From the IMG/VR virus record IMGVR_UViG_3300048625_000009, positions 1-60,533 of that record: DNA of 60,533 bases. One strand, written 5' to 3'. The position numbers and the translations under genes are program-made. The notes beneath the pieces were generated by a model. The model was given only the letters and a program-made list of their open reading frames with translations. It searched no databases and had not been told where the DNA came from. This document shows, in pieces, positions 23,479 to 29,595 of the stretch. The first letter of the stretch is position 1, and each line of letters opens with the position of its first letter. The DNA comes from a virus (lineage: Duplodnaviria > Caudoviricetes).

Positions 23479-23486
23479 TATTTATA
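23479..23486 (-). promoter_or_regulatory. Consensus T4 late promoter TATAAATA
   Basis: Exact tatttata on + strand, intergenic, upstream of 23448. Confidence 0.75.
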
Positions 23487-23503: not shown

Positions 23504-24892
23504 TTAAACTGCAAGGATAGGAATTATCTTTTTAGCTTTTCTAGTCTTTTCAGGTTTCCCGTTAACCCACCAGAAAATGTCTTTTCTGTCCTGTCTCAGA
23601 GGACCATCGATGTACATAGGGACGAATCCAGTGGCTGTTTCAATCGCTGTCGCAAACACTACAATGTTATCGCTGTATGCGTTATTGCAAGAAGCCTCCC
23701 AGAGATCTCCAGAAAGGAACATACAAGCGCCTTTACAGATATGGATAACTGGACACTTAGGGCATTCTTCTCTATCTTTCCAGTGCGTAGAAGTATCTAA
23801 TCTTACAGCATCTAGATCAGAAACATGGCCAATTTTATGCGAAACACCAGCTGGGTTGTTAGAAACAGCACTCACGTTCTGGCAGGTTAGTACGTTTCCA
23901 TTTAAGTCTACTGCCATAGAACCAGACTTATCCATACCACACTTCTGTGGTAGTGATTCGATCCTTCTCCCAGAATAGATACCGTTCAAGAAACCTTTAA
24001 CTTTATCACCAATAGCCATGAAACGAGTAACCTTAGTTTCTCTAAGTTCATTATATGCTAAGTTTCTAAATTTGATTTCCTCTTCTTCATCTTGAAGAGA
24101 GTTTGTCATACCACCTTCGTCGTATGCGTCTACGAAACCACCTTCGCCAATAGTCACGTACTGGATCCAGTCTTCCCCAACATTGTCTCGAATGAAGTTG
24201 ACAAAATATCTTTCAATGTCAGCGCGACTAACGTTCTTATTGTTAATCATTGCATTGAATGAGAACTTATTTTGAGGCGCGAGAATCTTAAATGCATGAA
24301 GAATAGCTTCTTTAGATTTTGCATCTTCTAGGGGATCTGGTCCACGAACGTGTTGACCTGGACCATCGTGGGAAAAACCAATCCAGAAGCCGTGTTTGTC
24401 TAGCCACTCAATCTTATCCATATCCAACAAACTACCGTTAGTGATAACTGAGCGAGTTGAGTTTGGATACTTTTCTACAATAGCCTCTACTAATGGTTTC
24501 ATCGTTTTCCAATAAACGAAAGGCTCGCCACCCCAGAATTCAAAATGTGTACCTAGTCCCTGACCATCATCGCCGCCTTGATACCAAGTAGACATATTTT
24601 CTACGAATGGTAGAACGTCATCTGGATTAGTAGAATCTGCATGTGGGACAAAACGTTGTGAGCAATAATCACACTCAAAATTACAAGAAAGACCGAGCTG
24701 GACTTTAATTGTCTTTAGATCTTTTTTAGAGTGTTCTATCTTTGCGGGCTCAGCGACTGGTGGAGAAGTTATCGTGCCATTTAGAATATGGGTTCCATCT
24801 TGCCACTTTAGAGTGCTAAGAGAACTATCATATATCATGACTCTTTCTTCTTGATTGACTGGGTTCCATGCTTTAATTTCAAACGTTGCCAT
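23504..24892 (-). CDS. Radical SAM enzyme with C-terminal SPASM domain (peptide/protein maturase type)
   Basis: CNFECDYC (Cx3Cx2C), FWGGEP, ITNGSLL, SHDGP; SPASM cysteines KCG...GNVLTC...CPKCPVIHICKGAC...C. Confidence 0.92.
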   Translation of the reverse strand: MATFEIKAWNPVNQEERVMIYDSSLSTLKWQDGTHILNGTITSPPVAEPAKIEHSKKDLKTIKVQLGLSCNFECDYCSQRFVPHADSTNPDDVLPFVENMSTWYQGGDDGQGLGTHFEFWGGEPFVYWKTMKPLVEAIVEKYPNSTRSVITNGSLLDMDKIEWLDKHGFWIGFSHDGPGQHVRGPDPLEDAKSKEAILHAFKILAPQNKFSFNAMINNKNVSRADIERYFVNFIRDNVGEDWIQYVTIGEGGFVDAYDEGGMTNSLQDEEEEIKFRNLAYNELRETKVTRFMAIGDKVKGFLNGIYSGRRIESLPQKCGMDKSGSMAVDLNGNVLTCQNVSAVSNNPAGVSHKIGHVSDLDAVRLDTSTHWKDREECPKCPVIHICKGACMFLSGDLWEASCNNAYSDNIVVFATAIETATGFVPMYIDGPLRQDRKDIFWWVNGKPEKTRKAKKIIPILAV

Positions 24893-24900
24893 TATTTACC

Positions 24901-25950
24901 TCAATTTTGTGGGGGTTGTGCGTATATATTTTTGTATCCATCAAGTAAAAATAACCATGTTGGATCAGTAGCTAAGAAAGAAGAAATACGTTTTTCTTTA
25001 TTTTTAGCGTAGTGGGTTTCACCAAACATCTCATCTAGTACCTGACGCATTTGCCATCTATGTGTATTCGGATCACCTTTAATTTTCGTGAAAGGTTCTT
25101 TCGTATTGATAGCCCATTCTTGAAATTTTGTAGAATTGAAAAACCCATGAACTCTAGAAGCCACCTGTGGGGGTACTTGAGTTTTATGTTCATAAATTGC
25201 AGTATACCAGTCTAAGTTGAAAATACAGTACCATCTTAGATCGTTAACTGTTTCTATTTTCTTAGGTGATGTCTTTATGATTGGATCTAAAAATTCTAGT
25301 AACTCTGTATTTATGTGTTTCTCATACGGTTCATATATGGTTTCTGGAGTACCCAGTGTATGATGAAACATAGCAGTGTTGCCAGTAGCGAAAAAGTTAT
25401 CTGTTGGACCAAACAGCTGATTTCCACACATACCACTCACAAAAATTGAATCATCATCTATCTGGTAGTTGAATTCATTGATTGTAGGTTTTTGTATAAA
25501 GCAATCAAACTCGTGTTTAATTCTTCTGTCGAACATATTACCAGATTCAATAATCGAGTTGTATGTGCCATATACTCTAATCTGTTCAGGGTCATTAGCA
25601 AAATGACGAAGCAAGAACAGTATATAAGTGCTATCTATACCACCACTCCACATAACATTTATTTTCTTACCTAATGATAGCAGTTCTTTCGCTCTAATCT
25701 CAGAAATATCAAAAAATGATTTATTATATCCATCTATCTTAGATGGCATAGGATGCAGGTCTGGGGTAATATTGAGGAAGTGTGGTAGGTGATTGGTTCT
25801 ATCGTAAACTACGTTGAACCTATTCATCCCAAACTTTTCATACTGATTGAAAAGTGCGGCGTTGTAAGAAGCTGAATAATAATCACTGAATATATGGTTG
25901 TTGCTACGAATAACGTCGCAAACTTTATGGGTGTTATAGTATAAAATCAT
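24901..25950 (-). CDS. PP-loop (N-type) ATP pyrophosphatase, asparagine-synthetase-C-like
   Basis: VMWSGGIDST PP-loop; FVSGMCGNQLFG resembles the Asn synthetase SGxGADELFG motif; no glutaminase domain. Confidence 0.7.
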   Translation of the reverse strand: MILYYNTHKVCDVIRSNNHIFSDYYSASYNAALFNQYEKFGMNRFNVVYDRTNHLPHFLNITPDLHPMPSKIDGYNKSFFDISEIRAKELLSLGKKINVMWSGGIDSTYILFLLRHFANDPEQIRVYGTYNSIIESGNMFDRRIKHEFDCFIQKPTINEFNYQIDDDSIFVSGMCGNQLFGPTDNFFATGNTAMFHHTLGTPETIYEPYEKHINTELLEFLDPIIKTSPKKIETVNDLRWYCIFNLDWYTAIYEHKTQVPPQVASRVHGFFNSTKFQEWAINTKEPFTKIKGDPNTHRWQMRQVLDEMFGETHYAKNKEKRISSFLATDPTWLFLLDGYKNIYAQPPQN

Positions 25951-25965
25951 AATGTCCTCGAAATG

Positions 25966-25991
25966 AAAAAGGGGATGACTTGCATCCCCTT
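25966..25991 (-). terminator. Intrinsic terminator after the dctP-like gene
   Basis: Minus strand AAGGGGATG-CAAGT-CATCCCCTTTTT. Confidence 0.85.
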
Positions 25992-26010
25992 ACATAATCT
26001 ACTTAGTCAC

Positions 26011-26955
26011 TTAGTGTAACTGAATTTTCTGAACTAGACCTGGAGTGAAATAGTCAGCAAACTTGTCATACACTGCAGAAGTTGCTTGGACGAATTTAGT
26101 CTTTTCTTCTTCAGACATAGTCACCAACTGAACACCCTTTGCTTGGAAGTCAGCGATAATCCCTGGAACATCAGCAACAGACTCACGACGTTCTTGGCGT
26201 GCAGCAACGAAAGCAGCATCAGAAAGAATCTGTTGAGTTTCTTCGTCGAACTGTGACATCCAATCTTTGTTAACGATAATGCTAGTCAACAAGAGGTTGT
26301 GATTAGTTTCATTGATGTATCCAAACGCTTCAGTTTGGTTTAATGGGAATACACGAACGTATGTAGACTCACCACCATCAACTAGACCAGCCTTGCCAGC
26401 TTCAGTCAAGTGTTCAATATCGATAGATTGGTTTGGAGTAGCACCTAGTGTAGAGAAAATTTCCATACATACTGGGCTCTTGCTAGTGCGGATGTCCATA
26501 CCTTGGAAGTCTTCAACTTTAGTGATAGCCTTCTTAGCTGGAACAATTTTGTAACCACCAGAGTATGTGAATGCTAGACCTTGGACATTGCTTTTAGCAG
26601 CAACACCAGCTAATAATCCTTTACCGATTTCACCTTCTAAAACACGATCGACGTGGTCATGGTCAGAGAATAAGAATGGAAGATCTAATGCATGAAGATC
26701 TTTATTATAGTCGCCTAGCCAGTTAGAATAAATGTGGCTCATTTCAATAGCACCAGTATCGATCAAGTTCAATAGATCGTGCTTAGTGATAGCCTTGCCA
26801 CTGTTATATTTGCTAGAATAATCTGTTAAAGAAAGAACTTCGATGACAAAAGCACCGTTTGTTTTCTGATTAACTTCTTTAGCGAATCGTTCTGCTACTT
26901 TCAAAAACAAACCGATTGGTTCGTGGGCGATAACCCATTTTACATGTTTAGTCAT
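26011..26955 (-). CDS. dctP: TRAP transporter substrate-binding protein, DctP family; likely start MTKHVKW at 26955
   Basis: FAKEVNQKTNG, GAIEM, ALDLPFLFSD, DFQGMDIRT, LGATP, GLVDGGE, ETNH and IIVNKDW..FDEETQQIL match the DctP fold; AAGGA RBS before 26955. Confidence 0.85.
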   Translation of the reverse strand: MTKHVKWVIAHEPIGLFLKVAERFAKEVNQKTNGAFVIEVLSLTDYSSKYNSGKAITKHDLLNLIDTGAIEMSHIYSNWLGDYNKDLHALDLPFLFSDHDHVDRVLEGEIGKGLLAGVAAKSNVQGLAFTYSGGYKIVPAKKAITKVEDFQGMDIRTSKSPVCMEIFSTLGATPNQSIDIEHLTEAGKAGLVDGGESTYVRVFPLNQTEAFGYINETNHNLLLTSIIVNKDWMSQFDEETQQILSDAAFVAARQERRESVADVPGIIADFQAKGVQLVTMSEEEKTKFVQATSAVYDKFADYFTPGLVQKIQLH

Positions 26956-26956
26956 T

Positions 26957-27268
26957 TTAGTTTCCTTGTAAGACTGTTTTAACGAAAACCCAAGTTTCTG
27001 TTTTAGTGTCAAAATTTATAACTTTTTTCAACACTGGAATTTTATTTTCTATAATTTTATTTATAGTTTCTTCTGGAATATCCTCAGTATTTATAACATC
27101 GGACTTTAGTATCACCATCCCTCTATAACCATATTCTTCACAAGTTGATTTATAATGGAAATAGTCTTTTATTGTGTGTAAATTACCATAATCAGAGGGG
27201 TTTCCAAAGTCGTCATACTTTGGAAACTCATTTACTTCTATCAAAACTTCATTAATATATGGGGTCAT
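26957..27268 (-). CDS. Hypothetical protein
   Basis: ORF packed 1-2 nt from both neighbours. Confidence 0.6.
   Translation of the reverse strand: MTPYINEVLIEVNEFPKYDDFGNPSDYGNLHTIKDYFHYKSTCEEYGYRGMVILKSDVINTEDIPEETINKIIENKIPVLKKVINFDTKTETWVFVKTVLQGN
27088..27095 (-). promoter_or_regulatory. Consensus late promoter TATAAATA inside the 103-aa ORF, about 130 nt upstream of dctP
   Basis: Exact T4 late consensus; intragenic, so it could be chance in AT-rich DNA. Confidence 0.4.
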
Positions 27269-27270
27269 TT

Positions 27271-28125
27271 TTAAGATAGAGTTCTATTAAATGAAGCAAC
27301 GCCAGTGTAAGAATACCATCCAAATTTAACTCTAACCTGTTCTCCAGAATTCATACCATCTGTGCTAACGAGAACACTTCCAATACCATTAGTTAATGGG
27401 ATTCTGGTTTTGTTAACACTGCCATATATTGGATCGACGAAAACGTCTGTGATATCAGGATTATTAACTTCTACTTGTAAAGAAATTTGATCACCAGCTG
27501 CAGTAGTTGGCTCAGAAGCAGTAATAGAAATAGTCGCCATCATTTGAGTGGCAAATTTAGTACCTTCAGTGAATGGTACAACATTAGTGCTAGTTGCGGC
27601 AGGACCACCAACAGTTGTAATGACTCCGCTATCTTCTGCAGTAGAATATGTTAATAAAACTAAATCTGTGATAGAACTTGTCTTAGAAGGAACAAAAATC
27701 TTTAATGGGCAAGAAAGAGTTTGATTTTTTTCCACAAACAAGTTTGGTCTATCTTGGAAAGATGACGTGTACACATTAACAATATCTGATTGTTTTACAG
27801 TATAAGTTCCCTCTTTATTTGCAATATCTGCTAGAGTAGAGTCTTTAACTGTCCACAAACTTTGGTCTGAAAAATTACCTGCAGATTTGATAACATCAAA
27901 TGGGATAGTAATATCAATAACTGTAGTTCCACCAGTGATACAATTTAATTTATACTCAATACTATCTCCAGAGATATTAATCCAGTTTTCCATTTCTATA
28001 TTGGATAGTGAAACTGGTGTATCTGAAGGAATTTCCTCTTCAGAGATAGTTGGTTGTTCTATTTCAATATTAGCATATTGAAGAATCTGTTTAGTGGAAA
28101 CATCGAATGGTTTAATTTTTAACAT
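27271..28125 (-). CDS. Hypothetical protein, beta-rich C-terminus (possible fibre partner or chaperone)
   Basis: AGGA RBS, directly downstream of the Cys-tipped fibre; C-terminal Ig-like alternating pattern. Confidence 0.65.
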   Translation of the reverse strand: MLKIKPFDVSTKQILQYANIEIEQPTISEEEIPSDTPVSLSNIEMENWINISGDSIEYKLNCITGGTTVIDITIPFDVIKSAGNFSDQSLWTVKDSTLADIANKEGTYTVKQSDIVNVYTSSFQDRPNLFVEKNQTLSCPLKIFVPSKTSSITDLVLLTYSTAEDSGVITTVGGPAATSTNVVPFTEGTKFATQMMATISITASEPTTAAGDQISLQVEVNNPDITDVFVDPIYGSVNKTRIPLTNGIGSVLVSTDGMNSGEQVRVKFGWYSYTGVASFNRTLS

Positions 28126-28141
28126 ATGTTATGTTCCTAGA

Positions 28142-29341
28142 TTAGCAGTTGCAAGCGCAGTTGCAATTGTATGTATACTGGATACTGTAGTAGGTTCTAT
28201 ATTGATGAACACCACCGCCCGTATCAAATACTTCGCCACCTGCTGGTCCAACAATCTGGTTACACTGAATATTACCGCAATTATAACGGCGACCAGAGTC
28301 ACGAGCCGCTGCTTGTTCAGCAGTAACATAACCAGTAGCTAAGTATGGCTTGCTAGAAACGTTACCCCATGCAACTGCGTTGGCAGAACCAGCAGTAGTA
28401 GCATAAGTTGCGTTAGTTGCAGTAGCAGCGTTACCACCGATGTTTGTTACAATAACAGCACCAGTAGAACCTTGAACAGAAGTAACAGGAACAGAAACAA
28501 TAACAGCACCAGTGTTACCTTGAACAGATGTTACGTTTGCGTTAATAGTTGGGTTACCAGAAACACCGTTTCCGTTATCGACTGTGATACCAGCACCAGC
28601 AGTAATAGTACGTCCAGTAGCAGTACCAGCACCAGTAAGAGCAACCATACCAGTGGAAACGCCAGAAACAGCAGATAACTGGGCATTATACGCTTGAACA
28701 TCTGTACCGATAGCTAGACCAAGAGTAGAGCGAGCATTTGATGCAGCTGCAGAACCCATCAAACCACGCATATAAGATGTCGCAGTATAAGTACCAGCAG
28801 TACCAGAACCAGTGAAATATGGAGCAGTATCAGCAGCAGATGTTAAACTCGCTAAAGCAGCTAGTTCAGCGTCATAAGCCTGCACATCTGTACCGATGGC
28901 TAGACCAAGAGAGGTACGAGCACCAGCAGCAGTAGTAGCACCAGTACCACCAGAGCCAATGGCTAACTGAGTAGTAAGAGTGATAGAACCACTAGTAATA
29001 GCAGCAGCGCCACTAAATGTACCAGAGAATGTAGTACCAGTAATTACGTTACCCGTAAAGTTACCACTAGAGTCACGAGTAACAACAGAACTCTTATCTG
29101 TGGCAACTGGTAGACCAGAAGATGTATTTAAACCGTCGATTAAATCAGCGTCTAGACCAGATCCAGTTCCATCGACAGTAACCAACTTAGCCAGAACGTC
29201 TGCTGCAGTGTAGCTAGCTGCAGTCTGTGCTAATTGGAGTTGTGTATTTAAGTTATTAAAGTTTGCATCGACTTCGGAGTTAGTAAGAGGACTACCCTTA
29301 CCAGCACGAGTCGTAATTGTTGCAGCGCTAACTGATGACAT
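28142..29341 (-). CDS. Tail fibre protein with C-terminal Cys-rich tip (…NCGNIQC…NCNCACNC)
   Basis: [17 protein letters not shown] anchor, [35 protein letters not shown] and VTSVQGxTGAV fibre motifs; all six Cys in the last 45 aa. Confidence 0.85.
28449..28534. repeat. Direct repeat, 2 x ~38 nt at 48-nt spacing (VTSVQGxTGAVIV)
   Basis: acaataacagcaccagt..ccttgaacaga occurs at 28449 and 28497. Confidence 0.8.
28698..28911. repeat. Direct repeat encoding [12 protein letters not shown] twice
   Basis: acatctgtaccgatRgctagaccaagag occurs at ~28698 and ~28884. Confidence 0.8.
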
Positions 29342-29358: not shown

Positions 29359-29595
29359 TCAGTCTTTATTTAAGACTTGAAGAATTAACGATTTGATCTC
29401 TTGTAATTCGTTCTTTAGATTATTTATCTCATCTGTATGTTGAGAAATCGCGTTTTCACGATCCTCAGCATGTCTACGACGAGTCATATACTCTTCATAT
29501 TCAGTTCTATTTGTATTTATGATGGCTCCAGTAGAGGGATCTCTAACTAAGCCATCATGTCCTACGACTTTTAAAAACTTATCCATTATGGGCAA
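29359..29595 (-). CDS. Small conserved T4-like protein with C-terminal coiled coil
   Basis: KVVGHDGLVRDPSTGAIINT motif; typically follows the giant DUF4815-type gene. Confidence 0.75.
   Translation of the reverse strand: MPIMDKFLKVVGHDGLVRDPSTGAIINTNRTEYEEYMTRRRHAEDRENAISQHTDEINNLKNELQEIKSLILQVLNKD
29367..29372 (-). promoter_or_regulatory. Late promoter core TAAATA upstream of the Cys-tipped fibre
   Basis: tattta about 26 nt before ATG 29341, with AAGGA RBS. Confidence 0.5.

What the first reader, a model, noticed from the sequence alone, without database searches (positions are those of the whole stretch)
23504..29341. Candidate RiPP-like maturation system for a phage tail-fibre tip: Cys-tipped fibre, radical SAM/SPASM, PP-loop ATPase and DctP
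Seen: six co-oriented genes sit in the middle of the late fibre cluster, between late promoter cores at 29367 and 23479. In order they are a fibre ending NCNCACNC, 284-aa and 103-aa unknowns, a DctP-like protein, a PP-loop ATPase and a radical SAM enzyme with a full SPASM cysteine set. Established: SPASM radical SAM enzymes mostly modify peptides or proteins (sactipeptide and ranthipeptide thioether synthases such as CteB, PapB and NxxcB; QhpD; anaerobic sulfatase maturases), usually with a Cys-rich substrate encoded nearby. Asn-synthetase-like ATPases include lasso cyclases. Inference: no free short precursor peptide is visible, so the core peptide may be fused to a virion fibre. The phage would then crosslink or otherwise chemically tailor its receptor-binding tip. 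I do not know of a characterised example.
Basis: partly seen in the sequence, partly recalled or inferred. Interest (0 to 1): 0.92.

Follow-up and report, generated by a model that had tools for sequence, protein, structure and literature searches.

The report
Phage fibre Cys-tail with dedicated rSAM
A phage tail fibre that ends in an Asn-Cys repeat sits next to a radical SAM enzyme that almost always accompanies such tails, so phages probably tailor their fibre tips chemically, which has not been described.

Summary
The fibre ends in NCNCACNC. The radical SAM (rSAM) enzyme has CX3CX2C plus a seven-Cys SPASM set. DctP and a PP-loop ATPase are present. The fibre-rSAM link holds up. In 163 loci anchored on this rSAM clade, 132 carry a same-strand protein with an (x-Cys)3+ repeat containing Asn-Cys, usually at the very C-terminus. 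Of the 31 others, 25 are cut off upstream, and the remaining 6 have variant tails, truncation or a probably broken gene. The loci comprise 80 viral contigs, 80 bacterial contigs, phages RSP15 and JWF, and the window. The tail occurs on three unrelated carrier families, in T4-like myoviruses, in RSP15 and in JWF-like prophages. In JWF it lies exactly at a Hint self-cleavage junction. An Ig-like 284-aa protein family is the next most constant partner (100 of 163 loci). The p103-DctP-PP-loop trio is separable in both directions, so the six-gene system is not supported. The chemistry is unproven: thioether cross-linking is inferred. Some NCNCNC-tailed proteins lack the rSAM. Seven literature searches found no description of this pairing.

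The parts
28142..29341 (-). Tail fibre, 399 aa. The first ~300 residues are conserved, residues ~300-390 are hypervariable, and the terminal NCxCNC is invariant.
   Evidence: N394 C395 N398 C399 invariant and C397 nearly invariant in 24 homologues.
28145..28168 (-). Codons of the C-terminal NCNCACNC tail, the proposed substrate motif.
   Evidence: It is the only such motif in the 60.5-kb record.
27271..28125 (-). p284, a tandem Ig-like (invasin/intimin-like) protein. It is the second most constant partner of the rSAM.
   Evidence: The family is present in 100 of 163 loci. The model has pLDDT 83. The best Foldseek hits are InvE, titin Ig domains and intimin. RSP15 ORF047 is a member (hhalign 99.5%).
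26957..27268 (-). p103, a small protein of unknown function and the first gene of the separable trio.
26011..26955 (-). DctP-family solute-binding protein without a signal peptide, the second gene of the trio.
   Evidence: Pfam DctP 1.9e-50, NF037995 125 bits against a cut-off of 50, best PDB hit 4xfe at 8e-26. The N-terminus has no hydrophobic leader.
25969..25991 (-). Terminator-like hairpin followed by a T run, in the gap between DctP and the PP-loop gene.
24901..25950 (-). PP-loop ATPase with an asparagine-synthetase-like fold and no glutaminase domain, the third gene of the trio.
   Evidence: SGGIDS motif. The model has pLDDT 84. The best Foldseek hits are asparagine synthetase, carbapenam synthetase and beta-lactam synthetase, E about 4e-4, TM 0.35-0.38.
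23504..24892 (-). Radical SAM / SPASM enzyme of a phage and prophage clade (phrog_1802).
   Evidence: (phrog_1802 at 1.3e-64).
23479..23486 (-). Exact TATAAATA upstream of the next gene (p111).
   Evidence: The motif is not enriched in the window (4 found, 4.49 expected).

Best explanation
The core is a three-gene fibre-tip module. Its parts are a tail fibre whose hypervariable distal part ends in an invariant Asn-Cys repeat tail, an Ig-like 284-aa protein encoded directly behind it, and a dedicated SPASM radical SAM enzyme. I infer that the enzyme modifies the exposed C-terminal Cys/Asn tail of the fibre after translation, inside the infected cell and before virion assembly. The most likely reaction is formation of sulfur-to-carbon (thioether) links between the Cys thiols and neighbouring Asn, Asp or Ala residues, within a chain or between the chains of the fibre. 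The result would be a chemically fixed cap that does not depend on disulfides. p284 is probably a fibre-tip partner (an adhesin or assembly factor), not an enzyme. The p103-DctP-PP-loop trio is a separate mobile cassette that lies inside the module in this genome. Shown: gene identities, the conserved motif, and the genomic coupling. Inferred: that the tail is the substrate, the type of reaction, and the role of p284.
For: (1) Coupling seen from the enzyme side. 163 loci hold this rSAM clade: 80 of 102 viral relatives, 80 of 166 bacterial-contig relatives, RSP15 and JWF, and the window. In 132 of them a same-strand ORF carries an (xC)3+ repeat containing NC. Of the 31 others, 25 have under 3.2 kb upstream. 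The remaining six are L001 (ends NCQCGN), L006 and L011 (end NCRNCNC), L073 (a Cys-rich family member downstream), L076 (only 256 bp downstream) and L103 (a fibre homologue with an aberrant C-terminus). Of 2398 same-strand ORFs in these loci, 139 carry the repeat and 137 of those contain NC.
(2) Independence. The tail sits on three carrier families unrelated outside the tail: JWF-type fibres (51 of 52 members), window-type fibres (35 of 37) and small Cys-rich proteins (34 of 35). These occur in T4-like myoviruses, in RSP15 and in lambda-like JWF-type prophages of Limnohabitans, Polynucleobacter and other Burkholderiales.
(3) The tail is terminal. The repeat ends at the last residue in 67 of 137 ORFs and within 8 residues of it in 116. 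In JWF gp028 the repeat's last Cys is residue 1 of a Hint domain (PF05203 47.5 bits, starting at residue 308), so self-cleavage would again leave the tail terminal.
(4) Selection acts on the protein. Codons are mixed (TGC 283, TGT 214, AAC 190, AAT 141) and only 76 of 381 neighbouring hexamers are identical. The tail is invariant next to a hypervariable region.
(5) Coupling seen from the tail side. 118 viral stretches match NCNCNC-stop, and 56 of them have the rSAM 14-3939 bp downstream on the same strand. Among the 65 with a frame of at least 80 codons and at least 1.4 kb downstream, that is 56.
(6) Enzyme type. The nearest solved relatives by profile are peptide- or protein-modifying SPASM enzymes: TigE (8vpo, 3e-18), CteB (5wgg, 1e-12) and anSME (1e-9). 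It has the seven-Cys SPASM set, as described for CteB, SuiB and TigE (passage in PMC10878394).
(7) Minimal pairs exist: a Cys-rich protein directly beside the rSAM, without p284 or the trio, e.g. L140.
(8) From recalled knowledge, not from any call: Asn and Asp are known thioether acceptors of NxxcB, PapB and QhpD.
Against: No chemistry was observed; the reaction type rests on analogy. The enzyme reaches no NCBIfam equivalog cut-off (best: anSME 52.9 bits against 349, PapB 49.8 against 340). No RiPP recognition domain was detected, and only about 60 residues precede the cluster motif. At least nine NCNCNC-tailed proteins of 144-203 codons have no rSAM within 1.4-11 kb. One of them lies in a contig rated 100% complete that has no rSAM at all, with a positive control that worked. 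The tail can therefore exist without this enzyme. Many loci are close kin, so the counts overstate the number of independent events. Both locus sets were capped at the best 80.
Confidence: 0.6

Rival explanations
1. The enzyme does act on the Cys tail, but the reaction is not cross-linking. Possibilities include oxidation of Cys to formylglycine as in anaerobic sulfatase maturases, a carbon-carbon link, epimerisation, or another side-chain change. In many relatives this would be combined with hydroxylation by the neighbouring 2OG-Fe(II) oxygenases.
For: anSME is the top NCBIfam hit (2.8e-14) and aligns over the whole core and SPASM region (query 72-383). The best solved relative, TigE, makes a C-C bond, not a thioether. 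2OG-Fe(II) oxygenases, including an Asp/Asn beta-hydroxylase family, lie in 84 of 163 loci, which suggests multi-step tailoring of Asn or Asp.
Against: All hits are far below family cut-offs. The tail shown lacks the sulfatase CxPxR motif (the motif itself is recalled). Seven auxiliary Cys, like the RiPP enzymes named in the passage, rather than the fuller ligation I recall for anSME.
Confidence: 0.2
2. One reading: the asparagine-synthetase-like PP-loop ATPase, the cytoplasmic DctP and p103 also work on the fibre tip. For example, they might adenylate the free C-terminal carboxylate of the last Cys, or an Asp side chain, to amidate, cyclise or ligate it.
For: The trio abuts the rSAM in 24 of the 163 rSAM-anchored loci, and a PP-loop homologue lies in 38. 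Distant PP-loop homologues (22-29% identity) follow the rSAM in other contexts, including a Polynucleobacter prophage (L143). PP-loop genes and 2OG-oxygenase genes almost exclude each other near the rSAM (both in 1 locus, PP-loop only in 37, 2OG only in 83, neither in 42), as alternative accessory enzymes would. The fold resembles carboxylate-adenylating enzymes. Both complete genomes tested hold both the rSAM and the PP-loop gene.
Against: The trio is separable both ways. Fibre-p284-rSAM is directly followed by p111 in L004, L005, L016, L017, L022-L024, L027 and L030. Of 48 loci with a PP-loop gene of 41-69% identity, 17 show no rSAM, and 6 of those have about 7 kb on both sides (L282, L292, L294, L295, L309, L321). 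In L294 and L282 the trio sits beside ribonucleotide reductase, glutaredoxin, NifU and IscA-like genes. In complete genome G013 the two genes lie at 129 kb and 3.4 kb. Of 29 more distant PP-loop loci, only 2 hold the rSAM. The mutual exclusion may simply follow lineage.
Confidence: 0.15
3. The Asn-Cys tail is a self-sufficient structural element, such as a metal-binding or disulfide cap on the axis of the fibre. This would be comparable in idea to the His-x-His iron sites I recall for the T4 gp37 tip. The radical SAM enzyme would then act on something else, and its adjacency would reflect shared inheritance within a recombining fibre cassette.
For: NCNCNC tails occur without the enzyme, including in a complete genome. 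Several fibre homologues have His-rich runs just before the tail (e.g. ...DPHHHH..NCTNCNCNC). An alternating x-Cys pattern would put all Cys on one face of a strand (inference).
Against: The enzyme keeps a Cys-tailed neighbour across three unrelated carrier families and several phage architectures. This includes minimal two-gene pairs 14-229 bp apart, which shared inheritance alone does not explain. No other conserved candidate substrate was found: p284 has only three invariant glycines.
Confidence: 0.1

Closest known systems
QhpD acting on QhpC (quinohemoprotein amine dehydrogenase gamma subunit)
   Same: A SPASM radical SAM enzyme that modifies a Cys-bearing subunit of a functional protein rather than a secreted peptide, with acidic residues as acceptors (recalled). 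TIGR03906 is among the hits (2.4e-11).
   Different: The score is 43 bits against a cut-off of 453. The substrate here is a virion fibre or fibre-tip protein with a terminal Asn/Asp/Ala-Cys repeat. The system is encoded by phages and prophages.
Ranthipeptide and sactipeptide maturases (PapB, NxxcB, CteB)
   Same: Radical SAM core plus seven-Cys SPASM. The substrates have repeated Cys with Asn or Asp nearby and are encoded next to the enzyme. CteB is the second-best solved relative (1e-12).
   Different: No RiPP recognition domain was detected, and there is no leader-core peptide. Carriers are 81 to 1082 aa, mostly fibres. The repeat period is two residues. NCBIfam scores are far below cut-offs (PapB 49.8 against 340, SCIFF maturase 33.9 against 425).
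Anaerobic sulfatase-maturating enzyme (anSME)
   Same: It acts on a Cys of a full-length protein, lacks a recognition domain, and is the top NCBIfam hit, aligning across the core and SPASM region.
   Different: 52.9 bits against a cut-off of 349. The tail has no sulfatase motif, and there is no sulfatase nearby.
TigE / TvgB-type cyclopropylglycine synthases
   Same: The best solved relative by profile (8vpo, 3e-18). Their substrates are repeat motifs (the repeat nature of those substrates is recalled).
   Different: The match covers only the N-terminal half (query 30-218). Their substrates are Val- or Ile-containing repeats, not Cys repeats.
Radical SAM cassettes in the host recognition cluster of pelagimyophages (PMC7029224, passages read)
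   Same: T4-like aquatic myoviruses with VrlC followed by tail fibres. Radical SAM gene cassettes were noted inside this cluster.
   Different: In the passages I read, the paper reports only their presence. It gives no substrate, Cys tail or function. I did not check whether those genes belong to this clade.

Membership tests
Radical SAM superfamily | CX3CX2C cluster motif and a Pfam PF04055 match above the cut-off | tested here: met
   C70, C74 and C77 are invariant in 11 diverse homologues. PF04055 scores 31.4 bits against 29.5.
SPASM subfamily | C-terminal CX9-15GX4C ... CX2CX5CX3C ... C motif for two auxiliary clusters | tested here: met
   C318, G332, C337, C377, C380, C386, C390 and C402 are invariant. 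TIGR04085 scores 31.7 bits against 27.
Ranthipeptide/sactipeptide maturases (PapB, CteB/SCIFF) | Score above the equivalog cut-off | tested here: not met
   PapB 49.8 against 340, SCIFF maturase 33.9 against 425, CcpM 44.4 against 500.
Ranthipeptide/sactipeptide maturases | N-terminal RiPP recognition (PqqD-like) domain | tested here: inconclusive
   There is no PqqD-type Pfam hit. Only about 60 residues precede the cluster motif. The enzyme's fold was not modelled.
Ranthipeptide/sactipeptide maturases | Short leader-core precursor peptide | tested here: not met
   The carriers are fibres or proteins of 81-1082 aa. The window has no room for a free peptide gene.
Ranthipeptide/sactipeptide maturases | Thioether product | not testable with these tools
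   This needs mass spectrometry.
Anaerobic sulfatase maturase | Equivalog score and a sulfatase C/S-x-P/A-x-R substrate motif (motif recalled) | tested here: not met
   TIGR03942 scores 52.9 against 349.45. The tail NCNCACNC has no such motif.
QhpD | Equivalog score | tested here: not met
   TIGR03906 scores 43 against 453, and only residues 44-179 match.
TRAP transporter DctP solute-binding protein | Family profile match | tested here: met
   PF03480 scores 172 bits against 23.4. NF037995 scores 125 against 50, but TIGR00787 scores 131.7, below its cut-off of 175.
TRAP transporter DctP solute-binding protein | Export signal and DctQM membrane partners | tested here: not met
   There is no hydrophobic N-terminal leader with either possible start. 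No DctM was found in the record, which is only 37% complete.
PP-loop ATP pyrophosphatase superfamily | SGGxDS motif | tested here: met
   SGGIDS in the window; S102 G103 G104 D106 S107 are invariant in 23 sequences. The profile matches PDB PP-loop enzymes only around the motif.
Asparagine synthetase B-like adenylating enzymes (includes lasso cyclases) | Synthetase-domain fold, and an N-terminal glutaminase domain for true AsnB | tested here: inconclusive
   The top Foldseek hits are asparagine synthetase, carbapenam synthetase and beta-lactam synthetase, but with E about 4e-4 and TM 0.35-0.38. The protein has 349 aa and the targets 473-515, which leaves no room for a glutaminase domain. Lasso cyclases were not compared.
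Hint/intein-like self-cleaving domain (JWF gp028 only) | Pfam Hint match starting at a Cys | tested here: met
   PF05203 scores 47.5 bits against 32.1 over residues 308-344. Residue 308 is the last Cys of the repeat.

The most novel reading that the evidence does not exclude
Phages of several unrelated architectures use a dedicated SPASM radical SAM enzyme to install covalent sulfur-to-carbon cross-links in an Asn-Cys repeat at the very end of their receptor-binding fibres. Many relatives add 2OG-oxygenases. This would make a RiPP-like, enzyme-made cap on a virion protein. It would be a new class of virion maturation and a new, widespread substrate class for SPASM enzymes (2956 homologues at E <= 1e-10).
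Probability: 0.45. Interest if true: 0.92.

Novelty: new variant of a known kind. Interest (0 to 1): 0.85.

Why it matters
Enzymatic maturation of a phage receptor-binding fibre by RiPP-type chemistry has not been described, as far as my seven searches could show. If true, it adds a covalent, genetically portable element to fibre tips. It also gives SPASM enzymology a large new substrate class with a two-residue repeat. It would explain the unexplained radical SAM cassettes noted in the host-recognition clusters of aquatic T4-like phages. It is directly testable, because cultured phages carry the module, for example Achromobacter phages JWF and 2-1. It also matters for fibre engineering and for structure prediction of fibre tips, which would otherwise miss the modification.

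Tried and rejected
- Complex prediction, with three copies of fibre residues 290-399 plus p284, returned no verdict (score 0.00). The p284-fibre contact remains untested.
- A single-sequence search of the rSAM against PDB found nothing at 1e-6. The profile search did find relatives.
- The p284 profile had no PDB sequence match. Only the fold search gave Ig-like hits.
- Pfam and NCBIfam have no family for the small Cys-rich proteins or for the ~300-aa variants.
- The protein atlas returned only unnamed viral clusters for the PP-loop protein.
- A direct BLASTP of window p284 against RSP15 ORF047 was not significant. The profile comparison was.
- I considered that the tail is a DNA-level hexanucleotide repeat made by slippage. 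I rejected this because codons are mixed.
- I considered that the PP-loop enzyme is an Fe-S-dependent thiolase, because of the NifU/IscA neighbours in L294. I rejected this because it has no invariant Cys.
- The idea of T4 late promoters bracketing the genes is not supported.
- Seven literature searches found no paper linking a radical SAM enzyme to a fibre Cys tail. The JWF and RSP15 genome papers did not turn up in these searches. Supplements were closed.

Full report
**What is in the window**

The region 23504-29341 holds six tightly packed minus-strand genes.
- Fibre (399 aa): it ends in [11 protein letters not shown] and hits tail-fibre PHROGs.
- p284 (284 aa) and p103 (103 aa): neither has a family hit.
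- DctP-family protein: Pfam 1.9e-50. Its probable start is the ATG at 26955, and it has no export signal.
- PP-loop protein: it carries SGGIDS, which is invariant among 23 homologues.
- Radical SAM enzyme: it has CX3CX2C and a complete seven-Cys SPASM pattern, all invariant in 11 diverse homologues.

The surroundings are the structural region of a T4-like myovirus. They include the major head protein, scaffold, sheath, terminase and baseplate. A 2089-aa VrlC-like protein and a small virion protein lie just upstream of the fibre. The record equals the window and is rated 37% complete.

Only the site at 23479 is an exact TATAAATA. The site near 29367 is not, and the motif is not enriched: 4 found against 4.49 expected.

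**Relatives of the enzyme**

- Named phages (tblastn): Ralstonia phage RSP15 has a 44% identical homologue, and Achromobacter phages JWF and 2-1 have 40-42% identical ones. In both RSP15 and JWF the gene lies just behind tail-fibre genes.
  - RSP15 ORF048, annotated as a side tail fibre, ends in NCQCGN.
  - JWF gp028 contains NCNCDCNCNCSC followed at once by a Hint domain. The first residue of that domain is the last Cys of the repeat.
- Viral contigs: a scan found 102 relatives, of which the best 80 were kept.
- Bacterial genomes: a profile scan found 166 relatives, of which the best 80 were kept. Most come from freshwater Burkholderiales such as Limnohabitans and Polynucleobacter. There the gene sits in JWF-like prophages. 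One example locus holds a tail J protein, the fibre, lysis-type genes and a recombinase.
- The wider family has 2956 members at E <= 1e-10. None carries an informative name.

**Test of the coupling, from the enzyme side**

I scanned all 163 loci for ORFs with three or more consecutive x-Cys pairs. After clustering 2398 same-strand ORFs, 139 carried the repeat, and 137 of those contained Asn-Cys. They lie in 132 loci: 118 motif ORFs are upstream of the rSAM and 19 downstream, with a median gap of about 1 kb.

The 31 loci without the strict motif break down as follows.
- 25 have less than 3.2 kb upstream. One of them (L148) still shows the motif in the unpruned scan.
- L001 ends in NCQCGN.
- L006 and L011 end in NCRNCNC.
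- L073 has a Cys-rich family member downstream.
- L076 has only 256 bp downstream.
- L103 has a fibre homologue with an aberrant C-terminus.

I therefore found no clear case of this enzyme without a Cys-repeat neighbour.

The tail rides on three carrier families that are unrelated outside the tail:
- JWF-type fibres (51 of 52 members carry it);
- window-type fibres (35 of 37);
- small Cys-rich proteins of 126-367 aa (34 of 35).

A few further families also carry it, including three tandem 81-87-aa proteins in L033 and L045. The window fibre shares an NCGNIQCN stretch with the small Cys-rich proteins, but the similarity is weak (E 0.003).

**Nature of the tail**

- Position: the repeat ends at the last residue in 67 of 137 motif ORFs and within 8 residues of it in 116. 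The 19 with long extensions are either Hint fusions or ~300-aa variants with a C-terminal extension.
- Conservation: in 24 window-type fibres the first ~300 residues are conserved and the next ~90 are hypervariable. The terminal NCxCNC is invariant.
- Codons: usage is mixed, and only 76 of 381 adjacent hexamers are identical. The repeat is therefore kept at the protein level and is not a product of DNA slippage.

**Test from the tail side**

- 56 have the rSAM 14-3939 bp downstream on the same strand.
- Of the 62 without it, 37 have open frames under 40 codons before the match. I treat these as chance matches or unknown short ORFs.
- 16 have real frames but under 1.3 kb of downstream DNA.
- 9 are real proteins of 144-203 codons with 1.4-11 kb of downstream DNA and no rSAM.

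One of those nine lies in a contig rated 100% complete that has no rSAM anywhere. The same search found the gene in three positive-control contigs. These exceptions belong to other protein families, for example DUF6712. The enzyme therefore implies the tail, but the tail does not always imply the enzyme.

**Other partners**

- p284 family: present in 100 of 163 loci, nearly always directly behind the Cys-tailed protein. RSP15 ORF047 is a member (hhalign 99.5%). The model (pLDDT 83) is a chain of Ig-like domains resembling invasin, intimin and titin. Only three glycines are invariant. It therefore looks like a structural or adhesive partner, not an enzyme or a substrate.
- 2OG-Fe(II) oxygenases: three Pfam types, including an Asp/Asn beta-hydroxylase family, plus two HxD...H-type clusters without a Pfam hit. 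They lie in 84 loci, often between p284 and the rSAM.
- PP-loop homologues: present in 38 loci. PP-loop and 2OG-type genes occur together in only 1 locus.

**The trio is a separate cassette**

In most close relatives the gene order is fibre, p284, rSAM, then p103-DctP-PP-loop. In the window the trio lies between p284 and the rSAM instead. Four lines of evidence separate it from the core.
- It is missing from many relatives whose rSAM is followed directly by p111.
- A scan anchored on the PP-loop protein returned 77 loci, 33 with the rSAM and 44 without. Among the 48 closer homologues, 17 lack the rSAM, and 6 of those have about 7 kb on both sides.
- In L294 and L282 the trio sits beside ribonucleotide reductase, glutaredoxin, NifU and IscA-like genes.
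- In a complete genome with terminal repeats, the rSAM is at 129 kb and the PP-loop gene at 3.4 kb.

The PP-loop model (pLDDT 84) is closest to the synthetase domains of asparagine synthetase, carbapenam synthetase and beta-lactam synthetase, with weak scores. A role in activating the terminal carboxylate of the tail remains possible, but nothing here requires it.

**Mechanism**

The nearest solved relatives are all peptide- or protein-modifying SPASM enzymes: TigE, CteB and anSME. No curated family cut-off is reached, so the reaction cannot be read from homology.

I favour thioether formation for two reasons. The substrates are Cys repeats flanked by Asn, Asp or Ala. From recalled knowledge, Asn and Asp are the acceptors used by NxxcB, PapB and QhpD. 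This is inference. The Hint junction in JWF and the strict terminal position suggest that a free or activated C-terminus matters.

**Literature**

Seven searches found nothing on this pairing. A pelagimyophage paper notes radical SAM cassettes in the host recognition cluster without interpreting them (passages read).

**Verdict**

The fibre-rSAM coupling is robust, widespread and apparently undescribed. The six-gene model shrinks to a three-gene core, plus optional oxygenases in relatives. The chemistry awaits mass spectrometry.

Noticed in passing
window 25969-25991 (- strand): A 9-bp GC-rich hairpin followed by a T run sits in the 60-base gap between DctP and the PP-loop gene. It could end or attenuate the transcript that starts at the fibre, leaving the PP-loop and rSAM genes to read-through or to their own start.
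   Followed up: no
L294 5771-8735; also L282 and L283: In some related phages the p103-DctP-PP-loop trio lies among ribonucleotide reductase, glutaredoxin, NifU-like and IscA-like genes, far from any fibre. What a cytoplasmic TRAP-type binding protein does beside an asparagine-synthetase-like enzyme is unknown.
   Followed up: partly
L222 2672-3226; L216 4896-5450; L227 11273-11881; L242; L260: Proteins of 184-203 aa from other phage families (one is DUF6712) also end in NCNCNC but have no rSAM nearby. One lies in a complete 89.7-kb genome with no rSAM at all.
   Followed up: partly
L033 3431-4214; L045 4799-5608: Three tandem genes for 81-87-aa proteins each end in NCNC(A/N)CNC or NCNCNC. They are followed by two p284-family genes, three 2OG oxygenases and the rSAM. 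Among the loci seen, this layout is the closest to a RiPP gene cluster.
   Followed up: no
L058 2328-3227; L079 7021-8034; L080 3249-4196 and relatives: In another phage group the Cys-rich protein lies downstream of the rSAM. After the repeat it carries a ~170-aa extension with a hydrophobic end. It sits among DNA-repair-type genes, next to an Asp/Asn beta-hydroxylase, and not in a fibre cluster.
   Followed up: no
L002 6844-8295 (JWF gp028); L118 5229-6359: The Cys repeat is fused directly to a Hint (intein-like) domain. The mature fibre would therefore end in the repeat, possibly through a thioester intermediate.
   Followed up: partly
L009, L012, L014, L018, L028 fibre C-termini: Several fibre homologues have His-rich runs (such as DPHHHH) just before the Cys tail. 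These recall metal-binding His motifs in other fibre tips.
   Followed up: no
163 rSAM-anchored loci: PP-loop genes and 2OG-oxygenase-type genes near the rSAM almost never occur together (1 locus with both, 37 with PP-loop only, 83 with 2OG only). This could mean alternative accessory chemistry, or it could simply follow lineage.
   Followed up: partly
viral contigs L163-L278: 37 of the 118 NCNCNC-stop matches close open frames of only 6-37 codons. That is more than my rough estimate of about 3-4 chance matches for random sequence. They may reflect AT-rich composition or unrecognised short ORFs.
   Followed up: no
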